From Solirubrobacterales bacterium (GTDB taxonomy: Bacteria; Actinomycetota; Thermoleophilia; Solirubrobacterales; 70-9): 64,000 nt of DNA. The notes under the pieces were generated by a model, which made no database searches, was not told where the DNA came from, and saw only the letters and a list, made by a program, of their open reading frames with translations. Made by a program: the position numbers and the translations under genes. The stretch spans positions 846 to 64,845 of the forward strand of contig JBOGZC010000003.1 of the NCBI GenBank assembly GCA_050697075.1, read 5' to 3'. Positions 49,738 through 63,037 of the stretch are shown here, piece after piece; positions within the stretch are counted from its first letter, which is position 1, and the number at the start of each line of letters is the position of its first letter.

Positions 49738-49975
49738 AGGGCGTGCGATCGGCTTGCGATCAGCTCGTTGGGCGACAGGCGCGAACAATCGCTATCCGAT
49801 CGAGCGAAGGCGCGTCGAATTGGGCCGAATCCGAGGCGGAGCGGGAGGAAGGAATGGGCCCGTTTGCAGGGACGTTCTTCTTCGAAGCGGAGGGGGAGGG
49901 ATTCGAACCCTCGTCACGCCCTGAAGACGTGAAACGGTTTTCGAGACCTTTGAAACGGTCTTCAGAGACCGTTTC
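49738..49975. repeat. composite repeat, copy B (block 1, part of block 2, tRNA-Ser fragment, perfect 10-bp hairpin)
   Basis: See 32097..32423. Ends in GAAACGGTCT-TCAG-AGACCGTTTC (49952..49975). Confidence 0.75.
49888..49950 (-). other. tRNA-Ser(CGA) 3' fragment, copy B
   Basis: Same 63 nt as copy A except one substitution in the variable-arm loop and divergence in the 5' side of the anticodon stem. Confidence 0.65.
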
Positions 49976-50066: not shown

Positions 50067-50339
50067 CTAGGCGTCGTATCGGCCGCCGAACTGCGCCGGT
50101 TGGGGCCGGCTCTTGTGCCCAGCTTCTTGGATGATCGGCGGGACCTCGGGGTCGGAGAGAAAGCTCTGAAAGCCCTCCTCGTCCCAGTCGAAGAGCACCC
50201 ACACCCGGTCCTCCTCATTGGGGTCGCGAAAGACCGTCGCGCCCTTGGACCCATGCTCCTTTCGCTTCTCGGCACCCTTGGTCGAGAAGATGCTCAGGAA
50301 CTGGTCGAAATCTTCGACCGTCGTCGTTGCTAGGAACAA
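50067..50339 (-). CDS. ABM-like / dimeric alpha-beta-barrel small protein
   Basis: MFLATTTVEDFDQFLSIFSTKGAEKRKEHGSKGATVFRDPNEEDRVWVLFDWDEEGFQSF. Confidence 0.55.
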   Translation of the reverse strand: MFLATTTVEDFDQFLSIFSTKGAEKRKEHGSKGATVFRDPNEEDRVWVLFDWDEEGFQSFLSDPEVPPIIQEAGHKSRPQPAQFGGRYDA

Positions 50340-50533
50340 GTGTCTACTCCTCTCGGGACTTAGCGTCGTTGCACTTGCGCGGCCTAAGCTCGCACCCTAT
50401 CTGCGCAGGTGAGTCGGCTCAAAGAACGCGTTTTTCACCAACCCCTGAGGAACCTGCCAAAAGCTCTCAGGCGTCGCTCCCGTTTGTCTTGAGGTTTGTT
50501 GCATTCATCATCCCTTTCCGACCCGATGGAGCG

Positions 50534-52879
50534 ATGCCTTTGACGTCGCCCAAAGCCGTTATGGCGGCTGGGAGCTCGCTGGTTCGAATAGGGGTCGTCT
50601 CGGCCGCGGCCGGGGCCCTCGCCCTATTCGTCCTTGCTCCCATGGCCCAGGCGCTCAGCTCGGTTCCGGCTCGGACCCCGATCACCAACGGGCCCGTGAA
50701 CGCGATCGCCGCTACGCCGCAGGCGATCTATATCGGCGGCAGCTTCTCTCATGTGGGGCCCAACACAGGTCCCGGCGTTGGGGTCGATGCCGCAACCGGA
50801 AGGAATAGCCACTGGCCGATGGTTGCGAGTGAGCCCGGCGCCACACCAAGGGTCTGGGATGCCGCCCCCGACGGCTCTGGGGGCTTCTACGTTGCCGGCG
50901 ACTTCACTCGCGTGGGCGGCAGATCGCTTGGCTACCTCGTCCACCTACGAGCGGATGGGAGCATCGACCGACGCTTCGCGCCGGCCCCCGATGGCCGGGT
51001 CTTCGACCTCGTGGTGTCTGGTTCGACGGTCTATGCGGTGGGCGGCTTCACCACGATCGGCGGTCAGTCCAGAGACGGACTCGCGGCTCTCAACGCTAGA
51101 ACCGGCGCTGCTACGAGCTGGGACCCGGCCGCGAACGGAATCGAGGGAGGAATAGAGGCGATCGCGGTGTGGGGCTCGACGGTCTACGTGGGGGGCGCGA
51201 TCAGAGAGATCGAGGGACAGCCGCGAAATCACGTCGCCGCGCTTGATGTATCGACCGGCGCGCTGGAGCCCTGGAATCCGCCAGACGTCCGCGGGGTGAT
51301 CGACGCCCTCGCCGTCTCGAGCTCGACGGTCTACATTGGCAAGGAGTCCACGCATATCGGCAACATGTTGGACGCGGTGGACCGATCGACCGGCAAGACC
51401 ATCGGCATCTTTCACTCGTATCCGACCGGGGCGGTCCGCGACCTCGTCGTCAAGGGGTCGAGGCTCTACGTGGCGGGTTCGTTCTCCACGATGCTGCACT
51501 TCAGGGAGAGCGGTGACGTCTTCATCCCTAGGCCCTCTCTCGCGTCCTACAACACGACTACGGGCGAGCTGACGCACTGGAATCCACGGCCGGACGACGG
51601 CGTCTCGGCAATCGCCATCTCCGGCTCGAAGGTCTACGCGGCGGGCGACTTCACCGAAGTCCGAGGAAAGTCTCGCGATCACCTGGCGGCGATCAATCGG
51701 TGGAGCGGCGTACCGACCGCCTGGAACCCGAGCGCAGACAGCGCGCCAAGCACGATTGCGGTCTCGGGCTCGACCGTCTATACGGGTGGCAGTTTCAACT
51801 CGGTGGGAGGCAAGCCGAGGGATAGCCTCGCCGCGCTCAGTCCGACGACCGGAACGCTGATGTCCTGGAACCCAAAGGTCAGTCCCGATGATTTCCCTCG
51901 TGGCGATGTGGAGGCCCTAGCGGTCCACGGCTCGACCGTCTACGCGGGCGGTGCCTTCCACGAGATCGGCGGTCAGCCGCGGAGCAACCTCGCCGCCATC
52001 GACCGAACCACGGGTGCGCCGACGAGCTGGAATCCTGGAGCCAACCACACCGTCTCGGCGCTGGCTGCCTCCGACAACGCGATCTACGCCGGTGGGGAGT
52101 TCACCTCGGTCGGCGGCGAGGTTCGCAACAACCTCGCCAAGATCGACTTGGCCAGCGGCGACGTGACCGACTGGGATCCGAACGTGACGACCACCAAGCA
52201 CTACCCGCAGTACCCCAACTACTTCCCGTCTCACCAGTGCATCGGAGACGATCCGTGCCTGTTCACCCTCGTCGATGCGATCGCGGTCGCTGGCTCGAGG
52301 GTCTACGTCGGCGGGATCTTCGATCACGTCGCCGGCAAGCCCCGAGGCAACATCGCGGCCCTCGACGCAACAACCGGTGCCGCCAAGAGCTGGAGTCCCG
52401 ACGCTAGCGGCGGCGGCTCCGCTGGTGGCTACGCGAGCGGCATGGTCGCCGCCCTGCGGGTCTCGGGTCCGATCGTCTACGCCGGCGGTGATTTCGCGCA
52501 GATCGGCGGCGAGCCCCGCGCCAATCTCGCCGCCCTGAACACAGCGGACGGCTCGGCGACGAACTGGGACCCGAGCGTCAGCTTTCACGGCGGTGACACC
52601 ATCATCAGCGCGATCGCCGTGAAGGGCCCCAACGTCTATGTGGGCGGCACCTTCGACAAGGTCGGGGCAACGGCCCGTGACAACCTCGCTGCCGTCAACG
52701 CATCGAGCGGAACCTCGACGAGCTGGAATCCAAGCGCCGAGTTCCCCCAGACCTATCTCCCTTTCTATGTCGCCGCGACAAGCCTGGCTCTGGCCCCCGA
52801 TGGCTCGCTGTGGGCCGGCGGGCGCTTCAGCTTTTTCCCAGCCGCCCCGGCGGCGGGCATCGCGCGGTTTGAGCCCTGA
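50534..52879 (+). CDS. large secreted repeat protein (about 14 beta-propeller-type blades)
   Basis: Signal peptide. More than 12 repeats of ...(V/I)Y(A/V)GG.F..(I/V)GG..R..LAA(L/I)(D/N)..(T/S)G....WNP... Confidence 0.75.
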   Translation: MPLTSPKAVMAAGSSLVRIGVVSAAAGALALFVLAPMAQALSSVPARTPITNGPVNAIAATPQAIYIGGSFSHVGPNTGPGVGVDAATGRNSHWPMVASEPGATPRVWDAAPDGSGGFYVAGDFTRVGGRSLGYLVHLRADGSIDRRFAPAPDGRVFDLVVSGSTVYAVGGFTTIGGQSRDGLAALNARTGAATSWDPAANGIEGGIEAIAVWGSTVYVGGAIREIEGQPRNHVAALDVSTGALEPWNPPDVRGVIDALAVSSSTVYIGKESTHIGNMLDAVDRSTGKTIGIFHSYPTGAVRDLVVKGSRLYVAGSFSTMLHFRESGDVFIPRPSLASYNTTTGELTHWNPRPDDGVSAIAISGSKVYAAGDFTEVRGKSRDHLAAINRWSGVPTAWNPSADSAPSTIAVSGSTVYTGGSFNSVGGKPRDSLAALSPTTGTLMSWNPKVSPDDFPRGDVEALAVHGSTVYAGGAFHEIGGQPRSNLAAIDRTTGAPTSWNPGANHTVSALAASDNAIYAGGEFTSVGGEVRNNLAKIDLASGDVTDWDPNVTTTKHYPQYPNYFPSHQCIGDDPCLFTLVDAIAVAGSRVYVGGIFDHVAGKPRGNIAALDATTGAAKSWSPDASGGGSAGGYASGMVAALRVSGPIVYAGGDFAQIGGEPRANLAALNTADGSATNWDPSVSFHGGDTIISAIAVKGPNVYVGGTFDKVGATARDNLAAVNASSGTSTSWNPSAEFPQTYLPFYVAATSLALAPDGSLWAGGRFSFFPAAPAAGIARFEP

Positions 52880-52929: not shown

Positions 52930-53255
52930 GGCGGTTCGCGCGATCGTCGCGCGATCGGCCCGTTGGGCGACGGGCGTCGGAATCGGCGTCAATCGGCCAC
53001 TTTCCCGGCCAAGACCGCCCTTCTTGAGCTTAAGCCGTGAAGAGGAAGAAGTGCCGTTTGCAGCTACTTCCCGACTCGAAGCGGAGGGGGAGGGATTCGA
53101 ACCCTCGTCACGCCCTTAAGACGTGAAACGGTTTTCGAGACGAGGATTTTGAGTCTTGCTTGGTGCCGATTTGCAGGCCCTTCGCCCCGGTCCCTGGACT
53201 TGTGCGATCCGGTTGCGATTCCCTCGTTTTGAGAGTTATGAGAGACGCCTTGGGG
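52930..53255. repeat. composite repeat, copy C
   Basis: All four blocks present. Closest to copy A. Confidence 0.8.
53082..53144 (-). other. tRNA-Ser(CGA) 3' fragment, copy C; candidate att boundary of the phage-like island
   Basis: Identical to copy A from the discriminator through the anticodon loop. Confidence 0.65.
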
Positions 53256-53460: not shown

Positions 53461-54069
53461 TCAGTCCTGCCAGAGCGAAGACGGCCCCCAGTAGCCTTCG
53501 GCGCGGATCGAGTCGTAGAGAATCTGTGCCTCCGAGCTGTCCAGGAGCTGAAGCTCGGTCACAGCCAAGCGGATCACCTGGCGTGTCGTGACCACCTCCG
53601 AATTCGGGGCGCGCTCGGATAGAACCCGTCTCCCGGCAGCGTCGTCCATCACTGCTCCCCAGCCCCGGATCTCGGCGATAGCTATCACAGCCGCTTCGCC
53701 TTGGCCGAGCCTCACGGCAAGTCCAGAGGCCTTTTGAAACTCGGCTGTCTGCAGCTCAGCGTAGAGCGCGATCTCATCTTCCGCGAGATCAATCACTTCG
53801 ATGTCCGCTCTGCTCCGCACTTCCAGGATTCGCCCCCACTGATCGGTCATCTCGCCGCTATCTGCGCGATCAGCGAAGTGGCGCTCGGATTGTCCGAGCT
53901 CGCTGACTCGAAATGCGGGCCCGCTCGGCTCCTCGTCCGGATCGAATACCTGCCTAGGAGTTCGGATCGTGCCGCCGAGAACCGCGCTCAGCAAATCAAG
54001 GCTGCGGGCGAGAGCCAAGTGACGCAGCGGGGTCGTGTTGCAGACGGTGTCAGGGTCGAGCGGACTCAC
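53461..54069 (-). CDS. PIN-like domain protein
   Basis: N-terminal ...VCNTTPLRHLALARSLDLL... and ...LGQGEAAVIAIAEIRGWGAVMDDAAGRRV... (PIN acidic-residue pattern). 20-nt overlap with the upstream ImmA gene. Confidence 0.55.
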   Translation of the reverse strand: MSPLDPDTVCNTTPLRHLALARSLDLLSAVLGGTIRTPRQVFDPDEEPSGPAFRVSELGQSERHFADRADSGEMTDQWGRILEVRSRADIEVIDLAEDEIALYAELQTAEFQKASGLAVRLGQGEAAVIAIAEIRGWGAVMDDAAGRRVLSERAPNSEVVTTRQVIRLAVTELQLLDSSEAQILYDSIRAEGYWGPSSLWQD

Positions 54070-55264
54070 TTAGGAACTCAAATTCCTCGGTCTGGTTCGA
54101 AGGTTCGGTGTCCGAGGGGGGCACCCGATACGACAGGAAGGCTTCGATCTCCTCTTGAGCCACGCCAGTCATCGCCGAGGCCCCTGACAGGGTTATGCGC
54201 TCGGCATCGAAGGCACGCCGTAGCAGGCGAAGAAAGCGCCGAGGGAACCTTGCCAATCCCCAGCGGCGGGGGCTCTGCATCCACTCGTCCGGCTCGGTTG
54301 AGTAGCCAAGGCTCTCTGCGAGCCGCACAGGCGCGACTTGGCGCATCCGTTCGATGTCAGGCGCATCGGCCAGACCCGCGGCCCCGAGCCGCACGAGCAT
54401 CGTCAAGTAGGAAACTCCGAAGTATCTCTGCAGGTGGACGACCGTCTCGGGGTCCCGTATCCGCACTTCCCCGAAAGCCTCGACGGCGGAGCGCAGGCTC
54501 TGCGCCGGAACAAGGAACTCCGCGGCGAAGGCATTAGCGAACCGCTCGCCCGCCTCGCGGCGCCCGAAATAGTCAACGTAGAGCGCGTCGCCATGAAAGA
54601 GCGCGTGGCCCAGTTCATGGGCGAAAGTGAACTGGCGCCGCCCGGGTGTCGTCTCGGCGTTGATCAGGATTGAGAAGCCGACGCCGCCATGGGGGACGAA
54701 AGCGCCGGAGACCGTCCTCTTGAGATCGTCACCGAGCGGGGCTAGGTAGACCGTGATTCCGATGCGGTCCGCGAGCGACAGCAAGTCACCAACAGGGCCG
54801 GTGCCTAGGCCGAATAGCGCGCGGGCGTCCTGCGCCTTGCGGCGGATGTCCTCCCTGGTCGTGAAGCCCCGTGACAGGTGAAACGGCGGCTCCATGAGCC
54901 CGGGCTCCTCACCGAGGGCATCGAGAAACCCCGCATAGTCGTCGAGAAAGCCCAGGTAGCCTTGGATCTCGGCCTTTCCGCGGGCATCAAGGCGATCGCC
55001 AGCGTCTCTGAACAGCAGCTGCTCGAACTCAACCCGCGGGCGTTCCTCCGCACCCAGCAGCTCGTCGAGCGGTATGCGGTAGATAGCCGAGAGCTTGCTC
55101 AGCTGATGGCTGTTGGGCTCACGCTCACCGCTCTCCCACATCGAGATCACGGGGCGCTGCTGGCCGATGAGCGCGGCAACGTCATCCTGGGTAAAGCCCA
55201 CGCGTTCCCTCGCGCTGGCAAGCGCTTGCGGAAGGTCCGTGGCCGGTGGCGTCATTGTCGGCAT
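54050..55264 (-). CDS. XRE-family HTH fused to an ImmA/IrrE (COG2856, DUF955) zinc metallopeptidase
   Basis: HTH: LASARERVGFTQDDVAALIGQQRPVISMWESGEREP. Peptidase: RRQFTFAHELGHALFHGD (HExxH). Confidence 0.85.
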   Translation of the reverse strand: MPTMTPPATDLPQALASARERVGFTQDDVAALIGQQRPVISMWESGEREPNSHQLSKLSAIYRIPLDELLGAEERPRVEFEQLLFRDAGDRLDARGKAEIQGYLGFLDDYAGFLDALGEEPGLMEPPFHLSRGFTTREDIRRKAQDARALFGLGTGPVGDLLSLADRIGITVYLAPLGDDLKRTVSGAFVPHGGVGFSILINAETTPGRRQFTFAHELGHALFHGDALYVDYFGRREAGERFANAFAAEFLVPAQSLRSAVEAFGEVRIRDPETVVHLQRYFGVSYLTMLVRLGAAGLADAPDIERMRQVAPVRLAESLGYSTEPDEWMQSPRRWGLARFPRRFLRLLRRAFDAERITLSGASAMTGVAQEEIEAFLSYRVPPSDTEPSNQTEEFEFLSESARP

Positions 55265-55271
55265 GCCTCCA

Positions 55272-55309
55272 TGTTACACTCTCAGCAGATCCAACTTGAT
55301 TCGGTAACA
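55272..55309. promoter_or_regulatory. TGTTAC-N26-GTAACA inverted repeat plus a TACACT box in the 67-bp divergent intergenic region
   Basis: Locally AT-richer stretch between the XRE-ImmA start (55264) and the Ubl start (55332). Short, so only a weak operator candidate. Confidence 0.3.
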
Positions 55310-55331
55310 GAAACCGAAGGAGGTGAAGCAG

Positions 55332-55565
55332 ATGTCTTCCACGACCCAAACGACGGTGACGGTGACGATCGAGGGCTCCGAGTACGAGCTCGAGGATCGC
55401 GAGTACAAGGGATCGGAGGTACGCGAGCTGGCAGGTCTTGAGAACCGCGACAAGCTCGTCCGGGAGGAAGCCGACGGGTCAGAGACGGCGATCCCTCCGG
55501 GCAGGAAGATCCGCCCCACGGACGGTGCCAACTTCTACATCTCGATCCGATTTCGTCGTGGCTGA
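55332..55565 (+). CDS. ubiquitin-like beta-grasp protein (Multiubiquitin-family-like), 77 aa, ends in Gly
   Basis: GAAGGAGG 9 nt upstream. MSSTTQTTVTVTIEGSEYELEDREYKGSEVRELAGL...IRPTDGANFYISIRFRRG*. The gene context with E2, JAB and E1 supports the call. Confidence 0.6.
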   Translation: MSSTTQTTVTVTIEGSEYELEDREYKGSEVRELAGLENRDKLVREEADGSETAIPPGRKIRPTDGANFYISIRFRRG

Positions 55566-55983
55566 GACGGAAGCGGCCGTGATGCATCCGCGGCTCGCCG
55601 AGGAGTGGTCCGAACTCTGCGGGCTTCACCCAACGGCAACCCACGCCCTCGAGCCGGAGCGGCTCGAACTGGTTTTGCAGCTGGCGCTGGACATTTACTC
55701 GCAGAGCGACACTCCGGTGGCGGTCCTGGTTCCCCCCGGCTACCGCACGACGGGCCCGGATGGGTTCCTTGTCCCAAACGGGCTGGTCTTTTCCGATGGC
55801 AGTCCTTTGCCGGTATCCGACGGAGCTGGCATCGGGATGCCCGGATGGCTCTTGGTCTCGTTTCACCACACCGATGAGAATGGCGCCTCGACTTGGAGGC
55901 CGACCGCTGACTTTCGCGTCGGGGACAACCTCATCGGCTACCTATCCTCAATCGAGCACTTCCTCGCGCACCGCTGCAACTGA
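55558..55983 (+). CDS. prokaryotic E2/UBC-fold protein (Prok-E2 family-E-like)
   Basis: GTG overlaps the Ubl stop (GTGGCTGA). PPGYRTTGPDGFLVP....GWLLVSFHH....WRPT....LIGYLSSIEHFL follows the UBC landmark order. Confidence 0.55.
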   Translation: MAETEAAVMHPRLAEEWSELCGLHPTATHALEPERLELVLQLALDIYSQSDTPVAVLVPPGYRTTGPDGFLVPNGLVFSDGSPLPVSDGAGIGMPGWLLVSFHHTDENGASTWRPTADFRVGDNLIGYLSSIEHFLAHRCN

Positions 55984-57329
55984 TGGAATTGCGCGTAGCG
56001 ACCCACGATCTTCGCACGCTACATCAGGAGCTGCTCGCCGTAGCTCCGGCCGAGGGAGCCGCCTTTCTCTCGGTCGAGCCCGCGGGGCCGAATTTCGTCA
56101 TGCGCGCGGCGCGGGTCTTCGGAACCGAGGACGCGGATCCCGGGGGCGGGGCCGCGATCCAGATTGAAGAGGAGGCGAAGGTTGCTGCGCTCGCCGAGAT
56201 AAAGCGCGCTGGCCACGCTGCGGTCGAGGTCCATACGCATCCCCGTGCGGACCGACAAGTGGCCTTCTCGCGCTTCGATGAGGCCGAGCTGCCAACGTTC
56301 GCTCAGTACGTTCGGCGAAAGATCCCGAACCGCCCTTTCGGAGCCTTAGTCTTTGGCCGGCGGTCGTACGCGGGACGAGTGTTCGATGTAGACGGGAACC
56401 CTGGACCCATGGATCTTCTGGCGGTCGGCGAGTTCCAGGCAAGACCTGAGTGGCTGAGGGCGGGGGCTGCGGCCAAGAGTTCGGAACTTGAGATTGCGTC
56501 GCGCTTTGACCGGCAGGTTCGAGCTCTCGGCCCGACGGGCCAAAGCGTGCTCCAGAGTCTTCGGGTGGGAGTCGTTGGCCTCGGAGGCACAGGCAGCGTC
56601 GTCGTTCAACAGCTCGCCCACCTAGGAATCAAACGATTTGTCCTTGTCGACGACGACCGCGTCGAAGCCACGAACCTTCACCGCCTTGCCGGCGGATCGT
56701 GGCGCGATGCACGGCTTCGCCGGCGTAAGTCCTCCGTCGCGCGGCGACTAATCCATCGTGTTTCTCGCAAGTCAACGGTCGAGACGTTCGGCAACCTTCG
56801 GTCCGCCGATGCGATCGACGCGTTGAAGAACGTCGACGTAATCATCGGCTGCGTGGACAACGACGGCGCTCGTTTGATCATGACCGAGCTCGCCGCCGCC
56901 TACCTGATTCCTTACCTCGATATAGGAGTCGGCATCGAACAAAATGGGCCACCCTCCTTTGGGGGACGGACGGGCTTCTTCTTGCCCGGCGGCCCCTGCC
57001 TGGCCTGCGCTGATGAGCTTGACTTCGCAGAAGCGGCAGAGGATCTCGAATCGGCTGCCCAACGCTCCGTGCGCCAAGTCCGCGGCTACGCTCGGGACCG
57101 CCGCGTCGAACCGGCGCTAATGCCGCTCAACACCGCGATCGCAGGAATCGCAATCATGGAACTTCTCGCGTTTGCGACAGGCGTCGATCGAGTGCGGCCG
57201 TATCAACGGTACGACGCGTTCGCCCGTCGGTGGGTTCCTGCCAACGCCGAGCGCGATAACCAATGCCCGGTATGTGGTCCTGCGCGCGCGATGGGCGATC
57301 GACTTCGGATCGAGCGTTACGCCGCATAG
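55983..57329 (+). CDS. JAB/JAMM deubiquitinase-like domain fused to a ThiF/MoeB-type E1 adenylyltransferase
   Basis: ATG overlaps the E2 stop (TGATG). JAMM-like AVEVHTHPRADRQVAFSRFD. E1: VGVVGLGGTGSVVVQQLAHLGI..FVLVDDD, VIIGCVDNDGARL, CxxC pairs CLAC and CPVC. Confidence 0.85.
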   Translation: MELRVATHDLRTLHQELLAVAPAEGAAFLSVEPAGPNFVMRAARVFGTEDADPGGGAAIQIEEEAKVAALAEIKRAGHAAVEVHTHPRADRQVAFSRFDEAELPTFAQYVRRKIPNRPFGALVFGRRSYAGRVFDVDGNPGPMDLLAVGEFQARPEWLRAGAAAKSSELEIASRFDRQVRALGPTGQSVLQSLRVGVVGLGGTGSVVVQQLAHLGIKRFVLVDDDRVEATNLHRLAGGSWRDARLRRRKSSVARRLIHRVSRKSTVETFGNLRSADAIDALKNVDVIIGCVDNDGARLIMTELAAAYLIPYLDIGVGIEQNGPPSFGGRTGFFLPGGPCLACADELDFAEAAEDLESAAQRSVRQVRGYARDRRVEPALMPLNTAIAGIAIMELLAFATGVDRVRPYQRYDAFARRWVPANAERDNQCPVCGPARAMGDRLRIERYAA

Positions 57330-57459: not shown

Positions 57460-57699
57460 TCAGCCCTTTGGCGGATACGGATCATGTCCTGGAGGCACCG
57501 TGTCCTTGTCCCGGATGCGACCGTCCCTACCTTGCGTCACAAGCTCGCCGCCACCGTCGTTATGGAGGTAACGACGTGCCGCGCCTTGGGCGTCAGCCTG
57601 AGTGTCGTGGTGCGACGACGCTCGCGACGCGCCGGGCTTGTGAACGCTCCAACCGCCTTCTGTATCGGGTGAAACGGTGCGTCGATTTGCTCTTGCCAT
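57460..57699 (-). CDS. DUF2188 family protein
   Basis: ...VSPDTEGGWSVHKPGASRASS.HDTQADAQGAARRYLHNDGGGELVTQGRDGRIRDKDTV. Confidence 0.55.
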   Translation of the reverse strand: MARANRRTVSPDTEGGWSVHKPGASRASSHHDTQADAQGAARRYLHNDGGGELVTQGRDGRIRDKDTVPPGHDPYPPKG

Positions 57700-57824
57700 G
57701 AACCTATGGTGGCTCACCCAGCGGACAGACCGCTTTAGGCATCGAGCCAGACCGGCACCATGATGAGATCATCATCCCCTTGGCGACTGAAAAGGCCACC
57801 GATTTCGCATACGGGGAGCAGGAA

Positions 57825-59159
57825 ATGGCTCGTGTCTGGGTTCCGGAACCCGATCAGACCCCTGGCGATCTCCGCGATCCGTTCGAGCGCGACCGTGCAC
57901 GGATCATTCACAGCGTGGCGTTCCGTCGGCTTCAGGGAAAGACGCAGATCTTTACGAGTTCGACGGACTTTCTCAGGACTCGTGTGACCCACACGATCGA
58001 GGTAGCGCAGATCGGACGGGCGCTCGCGAAGACCTTTGGAGTTAATGACAGTCTGGTTGAGGCAACCTGCTTGGGGCATGATCTCGGTCATCCGCCATTC
58101 GGACATACGGGCGAGGAGGTGCTCGCCGAGCTGTTGCGCGAGGTGGCTAGCACCTTGGATAGCGGAGAGCTTCAGCGATCCGAGTCGGACCCTGAGGAAC
58201 ATCCCGGCTCGTTCGAGGGAAACGCGCAGAGTTTTCGCATCGTCACGCGCCTAGAGCAGAAGAGCGCAGACTATCCGGGTCTCGACCTATGTCGAGCAAC
58301 TCTTCTCGGCCTCATCAAGTACCCATATCGTGGAAGCGCTGGTCATTCCAAATTCCTCTACGACGACGATGCGGAAGCCTACGAGGAGTGGCTATTCGAG
58401 GGCACCGGGCACAGGTTGCTCACCGCGTTTGACCCATTGGACGAGCCACCCCGAACGTTGCCCTGCCAACTCATGGACTGGGCCGACGACATCGCCTACT
58501 CAGTCCATGATCTCGAGGACGGGATCGCGAGTGAGATGCTGCAACCGTGGCGTTGGAATACAGACAGCTTTATCCAAACGATCTGCGACGCGACCGCGGA
58601 CGCGCCGATCCGATGGCGGGAAGGCAAGCCCCCGTCGGCGGATGTCATCGCGCCAATCGTCGACGATCTGCGGCGGCGGCTAACGGATCCGCTCGGCGAT
58701 GCGGAGACAGTGCCTCCTGACGTCATCCGTGACGTGACCCGCCACTACATAGACAAGTTCGCGACCGCACCGACGCTCCGCCGCATTGGCCCAGGTGACT
58801 CTCTGTTCGATTACAAGCTTGAGATCGATGAGGCCATCAGGATCGAGAACCAGGTCCTTAAGACGATCACCTTCGAATTCGTGATCGACGACGCTGAGAC
58901 TCGGCGGCTCGGTTTTAAGGGCAAGGAGATCCTGCGAAGCCTGTTCGGAGCACTGTTCGAGAACACCCTGCCGGTTGCGGGACGAAGTCGGCTCCGGTTG
59001 TTTCCGAGGGGGATGCGAGACAGCCTCGATACCCTCTCGGCCACGCAGGCTGCGCGCGCAGTCTGCGACTATCTCGCTGGGATGACCGAGGGCCAAGCGC
59101 TCCACCTTTACGCCCGCCTATTCGAGCCCTCAGCGGTAGCTGAATTTGGACATGTCTAG
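57825..59159 (+). CDS. dgt: dGTP triphosphohydrolase-like HD-domain protein (dGTPase family)
   Basis: FERDRARIIHSVAFRRLQGKTQIF...RVTHTIEVAQIGR...CLGHDLGHPPFGHTGEE...DWADDIAYSVHDLEDG. Start could also be TTG 57780. Confidence 0.85.
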   Translation: MARVWVPEPDQTPGDLRDPFERDRARIIHSVAFRRLQGKTQIFTSSTDFLRTRVTHTIEVAQIGRALAKTFGVNDSLVEATCLGHDLGHPPFGHTGEEVLAELLREVASTLDSGELQRSESDPEEHPGSFEGNAQSFRIVTRLEQKSADYPGLDLCRATLLGLIKYPYRGSAGHSKFLYDDDAEAYEEWLFEGTGHRLLTAFDPLDEPPRTLPCQLMDWADDIAYSVHDLEDGIASEMLQPWRWNTDSFIQTICDATADAPIRWREGKPPSADVIAPIVDDLRRRLTDPLGDAETVPPDVIRDVTRHYIDKFATAPTLRRIGPGDSLFDYKLEIDEAIRIENQVLKTITFEFVIDDAETRRLGFKGKEILRSLFGALFENTLPVAGRSRLRLFPRGMRDSLDTLSATQAARAVCDYLAGMTEGQALHLYARLFEPSAVAEFGHV

Positions 59160-59269
59160 CGATCTCTTGAATGCCGATAGGCATCAGTCGTCCCGCGAGA
59201 GCTTCCGTCCGAGCTGCGGGGAATGCTGTGGAAGTGGCATTTCGCATTCCCCGCGCCAGGACTAGAGCG

Positions 59270-59536
59270 ATGGCCACGGCGGAGGTTCGAATCAGTCCGG
59301 GAAAGGCTGGCTGGGTCGTAGTGGGACCGGATAAGCAGGAAAGCGAGGGCTACCACCGCCAGCACGATGCGCGCGCCCGGGCGCGGAGGCTTGTGCAGGA
59401 CAGCGGGGGCGGCGAAGTCGTGATCCGGTCACGAAGCGGCCGGATTGTCGAGCGCCAGACCGTCCCGAAGGCGCCGGCCATCTTCGGCTCCCACGGTCGG
59501 CGCCAGCTGTTTTCTACCGCGAGAGCCAAGCGCTAG
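59270..59536 (+). CDS. DUF2188 family protein, paralog of 57460..57699
   Basis: ...RISPGKAGWVVVGPDKQESEGYHRQHDARARARRLVQDSGGGEVVIRSRSGRIVERQTV. Confidence 0.5.
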   Translation: MATAEVRISPGKAGWVVVGPDKQESEGYHRQHDARARARRLVQDSGGGEVVIRSRSGRIVERQTVPKAPAIFGSHGRRQLFSTARAKR

Positions 59537-60002: not shown

Positions 60003-61196
60003 ATGGCTATCCGACAACTCACCTCCCAAACCGTCCCGATCCACAACCTGAAGCCGTATCCAGGCAACCCACGGCGTGGCGACATCGCCGCGATCAGGGA
60101 GAGCCTGGAGCAGAACGGCCTCTACAGGCCAATAGTCGCCCGGCGAGCCACCAGCGAGGTTCTCGCGGGCAACCACACGCTCGCCGCGGCGAAGGAGCTC
60201 AACTGGACAGAGATCGCGGTCACCTACGTCGACTGCGACGCCGAGCAGGCAAAGCGAATCGTGCTTGCAGACAACCGAACAAACGACTTGGCCGGCTACG
60301 ACGACCAGGCCCTCGTCGAGCTGATCACCGAGCTCCCGGACCTCGCCGGCACCGGCTACGACCAGGCCGCGCTCGACTCGCTCCTCGACGAGCTCGAGCC
60401 GGAACCACTCACGGAGGACGACGTCCCCCCTCCCCCCATCGCGCCGCGGACCTGTCCCGGGGACCTCTACGAGCTGGGGCCTCACAGACTGTTATGCGGG
60501 GACGCGCGCGATCCCTCCGCCTATCAGCGGCTCCTTGGCGACAAGCGCCCCGCTCTACTCTGGACCGATCCGCCCTACGGGGTCGACTACGAGGGAAAGA
60601 CGAAGGCGAAGCTCCGGATCGCCAACGACCGCTCCAACGGTCTTGACTCCCTCCTCCGAGACTCCTTCGCGGCAGTGAACGAGGTTCTGACCGACGGCGC
60701 CCCGCTCTACCTCGCCGCCCCCGGCGGTCGCCTCCTCCTCGCCTTTGCCCAGGCGTTCCTGGACGTCGGGTGGGACCTCCGTCAAAGCTTGGTTTGGGTC
60801 AAGGACGCAATGGTCCTCGGCCGCTCCGACTACCACTACCGGCACGAGCTGCTGCTGTATGGGTTCAAGCTGGGTCGGGGCCGACTTGGCAGGGGCGGGA
60901 AGGCCTGGCACGGCGGTGACTCGGAGACGAGCGTGTTCGAAGTCGACCGCCCACGAGCAAGTCGGGAGCATCCGACGATGAAGCCGGTCGAGCTGATCGA
61001 GCGGGCGTTGCTGAATTCCTCTCGTCGTGGCGCGGTCGTCCTGGACCCGTTCGCGGGCTCGGGTTCGACGCTTGTCGCCTGCGAGCGGACCGGGCGAAGG
61101 GCCTACCTAGTCGAGCTCGACCCTCGCTACTGCGACGTCGTCTGTGAACGCTGGGAGCGCCTTGTCGGCAAGAAGGCGCGGGTGGAGCGTGGCTAG
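60003..61196 (+). CDS. ParB-like nuclease domain fused to a beta-class N6A/N4C DNA methyltransferase
   Basis: ParB N-domain (NPRRGDIAAIRESLEQNGLYRPIVA..GNHTLAAAKEL). Motif IV WTDPPYG precedes motif I DPFAGSGSTLVA. Confidence 0.9.
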   Translation: MAIRQLTSQTVPIHNLKPYPGNPRRGDIAAIRESLEQNGLYRPIVARRATSEVLAGNHTLAAAKELNWTEIAVTYVDCDAEQAKRIVLADNRTNDLAGYDDQALVELITELPDLAGTGYDQAALDSLLDELEPEPLTEDDVPPPPIAPRTCPGDLYELGPHRLLCGDARDPSAYQRLLGDKRPALLWTDPPYGVDYEGKTKAKLRIANDRSNGLDSLLRDSFAAVNEVLTDGAPLYLAAPGGRLLLAFAQAFLDVGWDLRQSLVWVKDAMVLGRSDYHYRHELLLYGFKLGRGRLGRGGKAWHGGDSETSVFEVDRPRASREHPTMKPVELIERALLNSSRRGAVVLDPFAGSGSTLVACERTGRRAYLVELDPRYCDVVCERWERLVGKKARVERG

Positions 61197-61647
61197 GCCG
61201 ACCAAGCTCACCCCGGAGGTAAAGCAGCGGATCGTCCAGGCGGTCCGGGCCGGCAACTACGCCGAGACCTCGGCGCGCTCGGCTGGCGTCTCCTCGGCCA
61301 CCTACTACCGGTGGATGAAGCGCGGCGAGCGCGAGTCAAAGGGGATCTACCACGACTTCTTTGAGGAGGTAAAGCGGGCCGAAGCAGAGGCCGAGGTCCA
61401 CGCGGTGGCGGTGATCCGCAGGGAGATCGCCGACGGCGATTGGCGCGCCGCCGCCCACTACCTGGAGCGCCGACACCCCGACCGGTGGCGACGACGAGAG
61501 ACGCTCGAGCACGACGGCGCCTCCCGGCTCGTAATCAGTGCCGAGGACGTCGGCGACCCGAAGACGAGAAAGGAGCTACGTGAGATCACCCGCCGAATTG
61601 CAGACGCTCGCCAGAGCGGGGCCGGCGGCACTCGGGGTCCTGACTGA
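61189..61647 (+). CDS. phage terminase small subunit-like HTH protein
   Basis: GTG overlaps the methylase stop (GTGGCTAG). ...KLTPEVKQRIVQAVRAGNYAETSARSAGVSSATYYRWMKRGE... Confidence 0.6.
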   Translation: MARPTKLTPEVKQRIVQAVRAGNYAETSARSAGVSSATYYRWMKRGERESKGIYHDFFEEVKRAEAEAEVHAVAVIRREIADGDWRAAAHYLERRHPDRWRRRETLEHDGASRLVISAEDVGDPKTRKELREITRRIADARQSGAGGTRGPD

Positions 61648-63037
61648 CTCCCGCTTTGCCCTCCCGCCCCATCTGGAGCTGATCGACGAGCAGGTGGTCG
61701 AGGCGGTGTGGCGGGCGGGAAAGCGCGCCCGCCCCGAGATCGTGCTCGTCTCCGCGCCTCCCAGGCATGGGAAGTCGACGATCATCTCCGAGTACCTGCC
61801 GGCCTGGTTTCTCGGCACCTTCCCCGAGCGGCGGGTGATCTTGACCTCTTATGAGGCCGACTTCGCCGCTTCCTGGGGGGCGAAGACCCGCGGCCTGCTC
61901 GAGGCCCACGGGCGCTCGCTCTACGGGATCAGAGTCGATGAGCGCTCGCGCTCTGCCTCGCGCTGGGATCTGGCGGGGAAGCCGGGCGGGATGATCACCG
62001 CCGGGGTCGGGGGGCCGATCACCGGTCGCGGGGCGCATCTGCTGGTAATCGACGACCCGATCAAGAACGCCGAGCAGTCGCAATCGCCGACGATCCGCGC
62101 CAAGCAGTGGGACTGGTGGCTCTCGACCGCCAGGACCCGCCTCGAGCCCGGAGGCGTGGTCGTCGTCGTGATGACCCGCTGGCACCAGGGAGACCTCGGC
62201 GGGAAGCTCCTTCAGGCCTCCACCGAGGGCGGCGACCCAGTGAGGGAGATCCGCTTTCCGGCGCTCGCGGAGCGAAACGACCCCCTCGGGAGGGAGGTCG
62301 GGGAGCCGCTTTGGCCCGAGCGCTACGACCAGGAATATCTGGAGGCAAGCCGCGAGACGCTCGGCGCCCACTGGTTCGCGGCGATCTACCAGGGGCGGCC
62401 CTCGCCCGAGGAGGGGGGCATGTTCAACCACTCAGACTTCCGCTACTTCGCGATCGAGGGGGACGAGGTCGTCCTCCGCCAACCCGACGAGTCGAAGAAG
62501 CGCTTCCCGGTCAAGAGCTGCCAGAGGTTCCAGGTCGTCGACCTGGCGGCCTCCGAGAAGGAGACCGCCGACTACACGGTGATCGCCGAGTACTGGCGGA
62601 CCCCCGAGGCGGATCTCCTGGTCCGCTCGGTGGTCCGCGAGCGGGTCGCGGTCCCGGACCAGCCGGCGTTCTTCACCAAGCACCACACCGGCTGCCCGGT
62701 CAAGGTCGAGGCGATCGGCTATCAGAGCGGGATGGTCCAGACGATGAGCCGCGAGGGCTTCCCGGTCGAGTCCGTCTACCCCGACGCCGACAAGATCGGC
62801 CGTGCCGGGGTCGCCGGGGTGCTCTACCGGGGCGGGAAGGTCTACCACCTGGCCGGCGCCCCCTGGCAACACGACTTCGAGGCTGAGCTCCTCGCCTTCC
62901 CCGCCGGCGAGCACGACGACCAGGTCGACACGGTCGCCTATGCGGCCAAGGCGCTGCCGTCGATCTACGTCGGCGGCTATCGACAGAAGCGGAAGGGAAA
63001 GACGATCACCGGCGGGCTGATGAACAAGCAGTTCTAG
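61580..63037 (+). CDS. phage terminase large subunit
   Basis: Walker A-like VSAPPRHGKST. Walker B LLVIDDP. C-terminal nuclease ...HDDQVDTVAYA. Start uncertain (61538 or 61580). Confidence 0.85.
   Translation: MRSPAELQTLARAGPAALGVLTDSRFALPPHLELIDEQVVEAVWRAGKRARPEIVLVSAPPRHGKSTIISEYLPAWFLGTFPERRVILTSYEADFAASWGAKTRGLLEAHGRSLYGIRVDERSRSASRWDLAGKPGGMITAGVGGPITGRGAHLLVIDDPIKNAEQSQSPTIRAKQWDWWLSTARTRLEPGGVVVVVMTRWHQGDLGGKLLQASTEGGDPVREIRFPALAERNDPLGREVGEPLWPERYDQEYLEASRETLGAHWFAAIYQGRPSPEEGGMFNHSDFRYFAIEGDEVVLRQPDESKKRFPVKSCQRFQVVDLAASEKETADYTVIAEYWRTPEADLLVRSVVRERVAVPDQPAFFTKHHTGCPVKVEAIGYQSGMVQTMSREGFPVESVYPDADKIGRAGVAGVLYRGGKVYHLAGAPWQHDFEAELLAFPAGEHDDQVDTVAYAAKALPSIYVGGYRQKRKGKTITGGLMNKQF

What the first reader, a model, noticed from the sequence alone, without database searches (positions are those of the whole stretch)
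55558..55983. The E2-like protein has no cysteine where a UBC catalytic Cys is expected
The 141-aa product has only two Cys residues: one in the N-terminal helix (ELCGLHP) and one two residues before the stop (HRCN). The segment corresponding to the canonical active-site region, between the PPGY..PDGF flap and the W-x-P helix, reads GMPGWLLVSFHHTDENG. It offers Ser and His but no Cys. Three readings are possible:
- a UEV-like non-catalytic adaptor
- transfer directly from E1
- non-thioester chemistry, for example an oxyester on Ser or His-assisted catalysis

Any of these would differ from the Cap2 and BilB paradigms.
Basis: partly seen in the sequence, partly recalled or inferred. Interest (0 to 1): 0.6.

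Follow-up and report, generated by a model that had tools for sequence, protein, structure and literature searches.

The report
Serine-type (Bub) ubiquitin-like E2 enzyme
The E2-like protein really has no active-site cysteine because it belongs to the published bacterial "Bub" family, whose E2 uses a serine instead, so the chemistry is already explained; the only new detail is a stripped-down three-gene operon layout.

Summary
Observation confirmed. The E2-like gene (best start ATG 55582, 133 aa, not GTG 55558) has two cysteines, neither at the active-site position.

- Across 40 relatives at 23-58% identity to the window protein, no column has Cys in 30% or more of rows. Ser93 (VSFHH) is invariant.
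- A family profile hits Citrobacter BubB (PDB 9eae) at E 6.6e-12. It pairs Ser93/His95/Asp60 with the catalytic S333/H335/D299.
- An AlphaFold model matches BubB best: Z 12.1 against 8.9 or less for other E2/UEV chains.
- The downstream JAB-E1 fusion matches BubCD over its full length (E 7e-32). It keeps the JAB residues and the crossover-loop Tyr369, which aligns with Y370.
- The upstream 77-aa beta-grasp protein ends ...RFRRG-stop.

This is a Bub (formerly 6E) pathway, shown in 2024 to work through Tyr and Ser oxyesters.

It differs from published Type I Bub in two ways:
- Ubl and E2 are separate genes, split exactly at the processing glycine.
- No DUF6527/BubE was found in the window, in four genomes with close homologues, or in 84 related loci.

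An invariant C-terminal Cys132, confined to the close clade, is unexplained. This scan has already found Bub operons on other DNA.

The parts
55582..55983 (+). BubB-type E2 of 133 aa. Catalytic Ser93 is codon 55858-55860 (TCG), His95 is 55864-55866, Asp60 is 55759-55761. The clade-specific Cys132 is 55975-55977.
   Evidence: Read from the sequence. Start codon set by the homologues. Weak Pfam Prok-E2_E hit. The model fits BubB 9eae_C best. Profile alignment to S333/H335/D299. Residue conservation.
55332..55565 (+). BubA-type ubiquitin-like protein of 77 aa with one beta-grasp domain. It is made with a ready C-terminal Gly (…RFRRG-stop).
   Evidence: Weak Pfam Multi_ubiq hit. The RFRRG ending is found in 5 of 5 loci. 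hhalign gives 98% probability to the Ubl half of the Ubl-E2 fusions, ending at their RG junction. The AF2 model best matches bacterial multi-ubiquitin proteins, TM 0.72.
55983..57329 (+). BubCD-type JAB/JAMM peptidase-E1 fusion of 448 aa. JAB residues are E24, H84, H86, S96, D99. Adenylation residues are the GxGGxG motif at 199-204 and R234. The crossover-loop residue is Tyr369 (RGYA). A Zn tetrad is formed by C339, C342, C428, C431. The start overlaps the E2 stop (TGATG).
   Evidence: ThiF domain. Weak Prok-JAB hit. Best PDB hit is Citrobacter BubCD. Invariant residues.
54050..55264 (-). Divergent XRE-HTH plus M78 (ImmA/IrrE, CapH+CapP-like) fused regulator of 404 aa.
   Evidence: Pfam and PADLOC hits. 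NCBIfam hit. The same gene sits upstream of the operon in L002-L005.
53461..54069 (-). PIN-like / PADLOC PDC-S70-like protein of 202 aa. It overlaps the 3' end of the regulator gene. Its role is unknown.
   Evidence: PADLOC hit at 7e-11. Conserved beside the regulator in L002-L005.
55265..55331 (.). 67-bp divergent intergenic region between the regulator and the Ubl gene. It is presumed to hold the promoter and operator.
   Evidence: Position only. Not analysed further.

Best explanation
The gene encodes a BubB-type E2 of a Bub (bacterial ubiquitination-like, formerly 6E) conjugation pathway.

Inferred mechanism, by homology to the Citrobacter system:
1. The JAB-E1 fusion adenylates the C-terminal Gly77 of the 77-aa Ubl.
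2. The Ubl is taken onto Tyr369 of the E1 crossover loop as an oxyester.
3. It is handed to Ser93 of the E2 as a second oxyester. His95 and Asp60 are presumed to activate this serine.
4. The E2 passes it to a lysine on a target protein.

No cysteine is needed at any step.

The locus is a stripped-down variant of Type I Bub:
- Ubl and E2 are separate genes, cut exactly at the glycine where Type I BubAB fusions are processed, so the Ubl is made mature.
- There is no BubE (DUF6527) protease.
- I infer that the still-intact JAB domain acts as the deconjugase.

The operon is placed under a divergent XRE-M78 (CapH/CapP-like) regulator. It lies next to a dGTPase and phage packaging genes. This fits an accessory, horizontally acquired stress or anti-phage module.
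For: E2:
- The profile of 40 relatives hits Citrobacter BubB at E 6.6e-12. The alignment pairs S93 with S333, H95 with H335 and D60 with D299 (D60/D299).
- The AF2 model has pLDDT 87. Its best PDB match is BubB: Foldseek probability 1.0, TM 0.60-0.62; VIA Z 12.1, rmsd 2.7 A over 118 residues, against Z 8.9 or less for all other E2/UEV chains.
- Ser93 is present in 40 of 40 relatives. His95 and Asp60 are present in 35 of 40 and are lost together in the same 5 sequences.

E1:
- The best PDB hit is BubCD, at 1.2e-22 for the single sequence and 7e-32 for the full-length profile.
- The RGY Tyr369 aligns with Y370 and is invariant. JAB residues E24/H84/H86/S96/D99 and R234 are invariant.

Ubl:
- It has a beta-grasp fold closest to Bil/Bub multi-ubiquitin structures.
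- It ends in RG-stop in about 70 of 76 related loci.
- It aligns end to end with the Ubl half of the fused relatives.

Biochemistry of the family comes from paper 10.1101/2024.11.21.623953.

No BubE:
- In the own genome the only DUF6527 is on another contig, inside a Type II Bub operon.
- None was found in four genomes with close operons.
- None was found in the window or in 84 loci using a 4-sequence HMM at E up to 10.
- There is no conserved fourth gene after E1 in 41 loci.

Patchy distribution: the E2 was found in 1 of 201 genomes of the order, namely the window's own genome.
Against: - Nothing was tested biochemically for this protein or this clade. All mechanism is transferred from a homologue with 21% structure-based identity.
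- The window E2 scores below Pfam's gathering cut-off for Prok-E2_E (17.4 against 25 bits). Alone, it finds nothing meaningful in the PDB by sequence.
- Two features that the paper uses to define Type I Bub, the BubAB fusion and BubE, are absent.
- Cys132 is invariant in the close clade and I could not measure its distance to Ser93, because model coordinates are not exposed.
- The Bub authors found no phage protection for any Bub operon tested, so the biological role is open.
Confidence: 0.82

Rival explanations
1. UEV-like inactive E2. The protein has lost catalysis and serves only as an adaptor or regulator of the E1 or the Ubl.
For: - There is no Cys at the active-site position.
- UEV domains (TSG101, Ube2V1) are among the next-best structural matches, at Z 8.2-8.7.
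- This was the earlier bioinformatic prediction for 6E E2s, as quoted.
Against: - Ser93 is invariant in 40 of 40 relatives at only 25% mean column identity. It aligns with a serine whose mutation, together with His, abolishes conjugation in Citrobacter.
- His95 and Asp60 co-vary.
- No second, Cys-bearing E2 is present in the operon for a UEV to partner with.
- The E1 keeps its full catalytic set, including Tyr369.
Confidence: 0.06
2. Direct transfer from E1. The Ubl goes from the adenylate or the E1 Tyr oxyester straight to targets. The E2-like protein only positions substrates and Ser93 is structural.
For: - In Type II CBASS, the Cap2 E1 cysteine was dispensable in vitro. This shows that E1-type enzymes can bypass a step.
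- Oxyesters are poor donors, so a two-oxyester relay looks inefficient.
Against: - In Citrobacter, both Y370F and S333A/H335A eliminate conjugates in vitro and in cells.
- The same residues are invariant here.
Confidence: 0.06
3. The clade-invariant C-terminal Cys132 is the real nucleophile. In this reading the chemistry is an ordinary thioester carried on a flexible tail.
For: - Cys132 is present in 29 of 29 close homologues.
- In Citrobacter BubB, the C-terminal-tail Lys358 is the site that becomes auto-conjugated. The tail can therefore reach a charged active site.
- The structural alignment runs model residues 1-133 onto chain residues 238-361.
Against: - Cys132 is absent from 38 of 40 wider family members, which keep Ser93.
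- It lies after the last helix (H117-129), two residues from the end. It is not at the position aligned to any E2 catalytic residue.
- The E1 partner has no catalytic Cys to hand a thioester on. Its four Cys form the CxxC...CxxC zinc tetrad.
Confidence: 0.04

Closest known systems
Type I Bub operon (formerly 6E.1) of Citrobacter sp. RHBSTW-00271: BubAB, BubCD, BubE. PDB 9ea4, 9ea5, 9eae, 9eav. Ye, Gong, Chambers and Corbett, bioRxiv 10.1101/2024.11.21.623953.
   Same: - The E2 has a truncated UBC fold with a Ser-x-His plus Asp active site and no Cys.
- The E1 is a JAB-E1 fusion with an invariant crossover-loop Tyr.
- The Ubl is a beta-grasp protein ending in Arg-Gly.
- The regulator is of the CapH/CapP type.
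- The genomic setting is accessory or mobile.
   Different: - Ubl and E2 are separate genes here, not a BubAB fusion that the JAB domain must cleave.
- No BubE/DUF6527 is present.
- The Ubl has one beta-grasp domain, where the Citrobacter protein has three.
- The E1 keeps a four-Cys zinc site that Citrobacter BubCD lacks at the aligned position (GGSTLS).
- The regulator is a single HTH-M78 fusion with a PIN-like partner gene.
- The close clade has an invariant C-terminal Cys.
Type II Bub operon (formerly 6E.2): BubA, the E2-E1 fusion BubBD, and BubE. One copy lies in this same genome on contig C61 (L001).
   Same: It belongs to the same pathway family, uses serine-E2 and tyrosine-E1 chemistry according to the paper, and has a separate Ubl gene.
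   Different: - The E2 is fused to the E1, and there is usually no JAB domain.
- BubE is present.
- The active site is Ser + Lys + His.
- hhalign found no similarity between the window's E2 family and the BubBD of the same genome.
Bil (BilABCD) and Type II CBASS Cap2 systems
   Same: They are bacterial Ubl or substrate conjugation systems with E1, E2 and a JAB peptidase. They are defence-associated and have no E3.
   Different: Both use catalytic cysteines on E1 and E2 and form thioesters. The window proteins have none at those positions.
Eukaryotic UEV domains (TSG101, Ube2V1/Mms2)
   Same: They have a UBC-like fold without a catalytic Cys. They are second-tier structural matches, Z 8.2-8.7.
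   Different: UEVs are non-catalytic partners of an active E2. Here an invariant Ser/His/Asp set sits at the catalytic site and no other E2 is encoded nearby.

Membership tests
BubB-type (Bub/6E) serine E2 | Truncated UBC fold closest to BubB | tested here: met
   The AF2 model has pLDDT 87. 9eae_C ranks first by Foldseek with probability 1.0. By VIA-align it scores Z 12.1, rmsd 2.7 A over 118 residues, with the next match at Z 8.9.
BubB-type (Bub/6E) serine E2 | Invariant serine at the position of the E2 catalytic cysteine (S333 in Citrobacter) | tested here: met
   Ser93 is present in 29 of 29 and 40 of 40 sequences. The profile alignment places it on S333 (chain residue 104 plus 229) at E 6.6e-12.
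BubB-type (Bub/6E) serine E2 | Type I accessory residues: His two residues after the Ser, and an upstream Asp (H335, D299) | tested here: met
   H95 aligns with H335 and D60 with D299. Both are present in 29 of 29 close sequences and 35 of 40 wide sequences, and are lost together in the same 5.
BubB-type (Bub/6E) serine E2 | Formation of a Ubl~Ser oxyester and dependence of conjugation on the Ser | not testable with these tools
   This needs biochemistry. It is known only for the Citrobacter and E. coli ZDHYS365 systems.
Type I Bub operon as defined by Ye et al. | Ubl-E2 fusion protein (BubAB) | tested here: not met
   The Ubl stops at 55565 in frame 0. The E2 starts at 55582 in another frame. 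The same split is seen in L002-L005 and in the 80 metagenome loci.
Type I Bub operon as defined by Ye et al. | [quoted passage not shown] | tested here: met
   Full-length profile match to BubCD at E 7e-32, with E24/H84/H86/D99 aligned to E28/H91/H93/D104 and RGY aligned to Y370.
Type I Bub operon as defined by Ye et al. | DUF6527 serine protease BubE in the operon ('all Bub operons possess bubE') | tested here: not met
   - The own genome has one PF20137 match, on contig C61 in a Type II operon.
- There are 0 matches in the four genomes carrying close operons.
- A 4-sequence HMM finds nothing in the window or in 84 loci.
Pfam PF14462 Prok-E2_E | Score at or above the gathering cut-off (25 bits) | tested here: inconclusive
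   The window protein scores 17.4 bits, E 0.0038. Fourteen of its 70 homologues carry a precomputed PF14462 hit.
Canonical UBC E2 / BilB / Cap2 E2 domain | Catalytic cysteine between beta-4 and helix 2 that forms a thioester | tested here: not met
   None of the 29 close homologues has a Cys between D60 and W105. No column in the wider family has Cys in 30% or more of rows.
UEV (inactive E2 variant) | No conserved catalytic residue at the active site, and works with an active E2 partner | tested here: not met
   An invariant Ser/His/Asp set sits at the aligned catalytic site. No second E2 is present in the operon.

The most novel reading that the evidence does not exclude
In this clade the invariant C-terminal Cys132 acts as a second relay or acceptor. 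The flexible tail would attack the Ser93 oxyester, in the way the tail Lys358 of Citrobacter BubB is auto-modified. This would give a mixed oxyester-to-thioester cascade that makes the Ubl a better donor. It might also compensate for the missing BubE, with the JAB domain taking over as the only deconjugase.
Probability: 0.07. Interest if true: 0.65.

Novelty: new variant of a known kind. Interest (0 to 1): 0.3.

Why it matters
The central point, an E2 without a catalytic cysteine, is already explained by the Bub papers. It therefore does not open a new question.

The locus does add three things:
- A three-gene form is widespread in metagenomes and works without two parts that the paper treats as universal or defining. 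These are BubE and, for Type I, the BubAB fusion that gives the JAB domain its only assigned job. The three genes are a mature Ubl ending in Gly, a Ser-E2 and a JAB-E1.
- Because the JAB domain is nevertheless catalytically intact here, it is predicted to be a true deconjugase. That is a simple, testable refinement of the Bub model.
- The coupled loss of Asp60 and His95 in one subclade supports the idea that these two residues act together on the serine.

Tried and rejected
- phmmer of the single E2 against the PDB gave only a spurious NuoL match. A family profile was needed.
- The Ubl profile of 5 sequences found nothing in the PDB by sequence. The fold search did find matches.
Gene context was taken from the search for related loci instead.
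A narrower alignment, A5, worked.
- phmmer with the genome's own BubE found no hit in the loci. I repeated the search with a 4-sequence HMM to guard against low sensitivity, and it was still negative.
- Rfam and ARAGORN found no tRNA or tmRNA in the window. The 88-nt tRNA-like repeat therefore stays unassigned.
- The paper's Table S1 is not held. I could not check whether any listed Bub operon is split or lacks BubE.
- Two literature searches were wasted on terms that match unrelated words.
- Model coordinates are not exposed, so the Ser93-Cys132 distance could not be measured.
- I considered a wrong start codon or frame hiding a Cys. This was rejected: the homologues fix the ATG start, and the upstream 8 codons hold no Cys.

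Full report
**What is there**

On the + strand lie three tightly packed genes:
- A 77-aa ORF at 55332-55565, ending ...RFRRG-stop.
- The E2-like ORF of the finding.
- A 448-aa ORF at 55983-57329, whose ATG overlaps the E2 stop (TGATG).

Of the 70 homologues found among 5.8 billion proteins, nearly all are 131-134 aa and start MHPR. The start is therefore most likely ATG 55582 (133 aa) rather than GTG 55558 (141 aa).

**Is the missing cysteine real and non-random?**

Yes.
- In 29 homologues at 55-80% identity, none has a Cys anywhere between Asp60 (PDGF) and Trp105 (TWRP).
- Cys13 is not conserved (2 of 29).
- Cys132 is invariant in this close set.
- A profile search of 1.84 billion cluster representatives found only 51 clusters at E 0.001 or better. 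Most are stand-alone proteins of 125-136 aa. Seven are Ubl-E2 fusions of 206-267 aa.
- In an alignment of 40 of these, at 23-58% identity to the window protein, no column has Cys in 30% or more of rows.
- The only invariant residues in that alignment are Ser93 and Trp105.
- His95 and Asp60 are each present in 35 of 40. They are replaced together in the same five sequences: Asp becomes Tyr, and His becomes Thr, Gln or Ala.
- Cys132 is present in only 2 of the 40.

**What the E2 is**

- Pfam gives only a sub-threshold Prok-E2_E hit.
- The single sequence finds nothing real in the PDB.
- The 29-sequence profile puts Citrobacter BubB first at E 0.0065 and aligns Asp60 with D299.
- The 40-sequence profile hits BubB at E 6.6e-12. 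The alignment ...qfSwh...W.P onto RWSRHRS--WNP places Ser93 on S333 and His95 on H335. Chain residues 104 and 106 plus the 229 offset give these numbers.
- An AlphaFold2 model (pLDDT 87, pTM 0.82) has the helix, four-strand sheet and single C-terminal helix of a truncated UBC fold.
- Its best PDB match is BubB 9eae_C. Foldseek gives probability 1.0 and TM 0.60-0.62.
- VIA-align gives Z 12.1 and rmsd 2.7 A over 118 residues. That is clearly above all canonical E2 and UEV chains, which score Z 8.9 or less.

**The partners**

The E1:
- Its best PDB relative is Citrobacter BubCD, at 1.2e-22 for the single sequence and 7e-32 over residues 8-398 for the profile.
- Across 22 homologues the JAB/JAMM set (E24, H84, H86, S96, D99) is invariant. 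So are the nucleotide loop, Arg234 and the crossover-loop RGYA with Tyr369.
- These align with E28, H91, H93, D104 and Y370 of BubCD.
- The E1's four invariant cysteines form the CxxC...CxxC zinc tetrad typical of MoeB/ThiF/Uba5-type enzymes. No other Cys lies in the crossover loop.

The Ubl:
- The 77-aa protein gives a weak Multi_ubiq hit.
- It folds as a beta-grasp.
- It best matches the solved bacterial multi-ubiquitin proteins of Bil and Bub operons, at TM 0.72 and rmsd about 2 A.
- Profile-profile comparison aligns it end to end (98% probability, E 1.4e-13) with the N-terminal Ubl half of the fused Ubl-E2 relatives. The alignment stops exactly at their RG junction.

**Comparison with what is known**

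Ye, Gong, Chambers and Corbett (bioRxiv 10.1101/2024.11.21.623953) renamed the "6E/DUF6527" operons Bub. Their main points are:
- The E2-like proteins of these operons had earlier been noted to lack a catalytic cysteine and had been predicted inactive.
- The pathway in fact runs through a Ubl~Tyr oxyester on the E1 (Y370) and a Ubl~Ser oxyester on the E2 (S333, with H335 and D299 in Type I).
- Y370F and S333A/H335A abolish conjugation in vitro and in cells.

The window proteins carry every one of these residues at the aligned positions. The structures were released in 2025. This scan has also met Bub operons on other DNA before.

**How the locus differs from the published types**

The paper defines Type I as a BubAB fusion, BubCD and BubE. 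It states that all Bub operons possess bubE.

Here Ubl and E2 are separate genes, so the Ubl is made with its reactive Gly already exposed. The same split is seen in four genomes with close homologues (Acidimicrobiaceae, Actinomycetota and Verrucomicrobiae MAGs). It is also seen in 80 metagenome loci of more distant relatives. In those loci:
- The ORF ending next to the E2 start ends in -RG in about 70 of 76 cases.
- The E2 shows Asp plus Ser-x-His in 82 of 84 cases.

DUF6527 is absent:
- The own genome has a single match, on another contig inside a classic Type II Bub operon of BubA, BubBD and BubE.
- The four related genomes have none.
- A 4-sequence DUF6527 HMM finds nothing in the window or in 84 loci, even at E up to 10.
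- No other gene is conserved downstream of the E1 in 41 loci.

The JAB domain has no pre-protein to cut here, yet it keeps its catalytic residues. I infer that it is the deconjugase of this form. This step is inference, not shown.

**Context**

- Upstream and divergent lies a 404-aa HTH-M78 protein, a fused equivalent of CapH+CapP. The paper finds the CapH+CapP pair next to 31% of Bub operons.
- That gene overlaps a PIN-like / PADLOC PDC-S70-like gene. Both genes are conserved next to the operon in L002-L005.
- Downstream lie a DUF2188 gene, a dGTP triphosphohydrolase related to anti-phage dGTPases, a second DUF2188 gene, and phage-type ParB-methylase and terminase genes.
- The E2 was found in only 1 of 201 sampled genomes of the order, the window's own genome. 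None of the six genomes of the same genus has it.
- All this fits a horizontally acquired accessory or defence island. The Bub authors have not yet seen phage protection from any Bub operon.

**Unexplained**

Cys132 lies two residues from the C-terminus and is invariant in the close clade only. In Citrobacter BubB the C-terminal-tail Lys358 is the auto-conjugation site, so a tail residue can reach the charged active site. A relay or acceptor role for Cys132 is possible, but I rate it at about 7%. I could not measure the model distance because coordinates are not exposed.

**Verdict**

The explanation is the known Bub serine-E2 chemistry. The locus is a new variant: split, BubE-less and regulated by a fused HTH-M78 protein. 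It is a variant of a known kind and of modest interest.

Noticed in passing
L001 (own genome, contig C61:13086-16262): The same genome carries a second, classic Type II Bub operon. It has a Ubl, an E2-E1 fusion (BubBD, about 400 aa) and a 152-aa DUF6527/BubE (PF20137, E 4e-25). hhalign found no similarity between its E2 domain and the window's E2 family.
   Followed up: partly
window 49860-49947 and 53054-53141: An 88-nt direct repeat at 90% identity contains a tRNA-like T-arm and acceptor sequence (GGGATTCGAACCC). ARAGORN and Rfam find no tRNA or tmRNA anywhere in the window. These may be att-type remnants bracketing the beta-propeller gene at 50327-52879.
   Followed up: partly
window 57460-59536: A dGTP triphosphohydrolase sits at 57780-59159. 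It scores 276 bits against TIGR01353, and 290 bits against the anti-phage dGTPase model, which is below that model's cut-off of 400. It is flanked by two DUF2188 genes and lies directly after the Bub operon.
   Followed up: partly
window 60003-63037: Phage-type genes: a ParB_N-DNA methylase fusion, an HTH small-terminase-like protein and a Terminase_6N large subunit. The Bub operon may be prophage or satellite cargo.
   Followed up: no
window 53461-55264 and L002-L005: An XRE-HTH::M78 peptidase fusion is followed by an overlapping PIN-like (PADLOC PDC-S70) gene. The pair is conserved upstream of the three-gene operon in all four related genomes, so the conserved unit is five genes. The PIN-like protein could be an effector or a partner of the regulator.
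   Followed up: partly
A2 rows P0092, P0093, P0108, P0116, P0120: A subclade of the E2 family replaces Asp60 by Tyr (PYAF/PYGF) and, in the same sequences, His95 by Thr, Gln or Ala. Ser93 is kept. This is either a different way of activating the serine or a loss of activity.
   Followed up: no
L004:7233-8765 and L005:7390-8740: In two of the four related MAG loci the JAB-E1 gene is split into two frames (284+161 aa and 372+120 aa). This is either a long-read assembly frameshift or a pseudogene.
   Followed up: no
window 55983-57329: The database's own gene call for this E1 (P0124) is only 306 aa, 68% of the ORF. It starts at an internal Met and so omits the JAB domain. Such calls would hide the JAB-E1 fusion from annotation-based surveys.
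   Followed up: no
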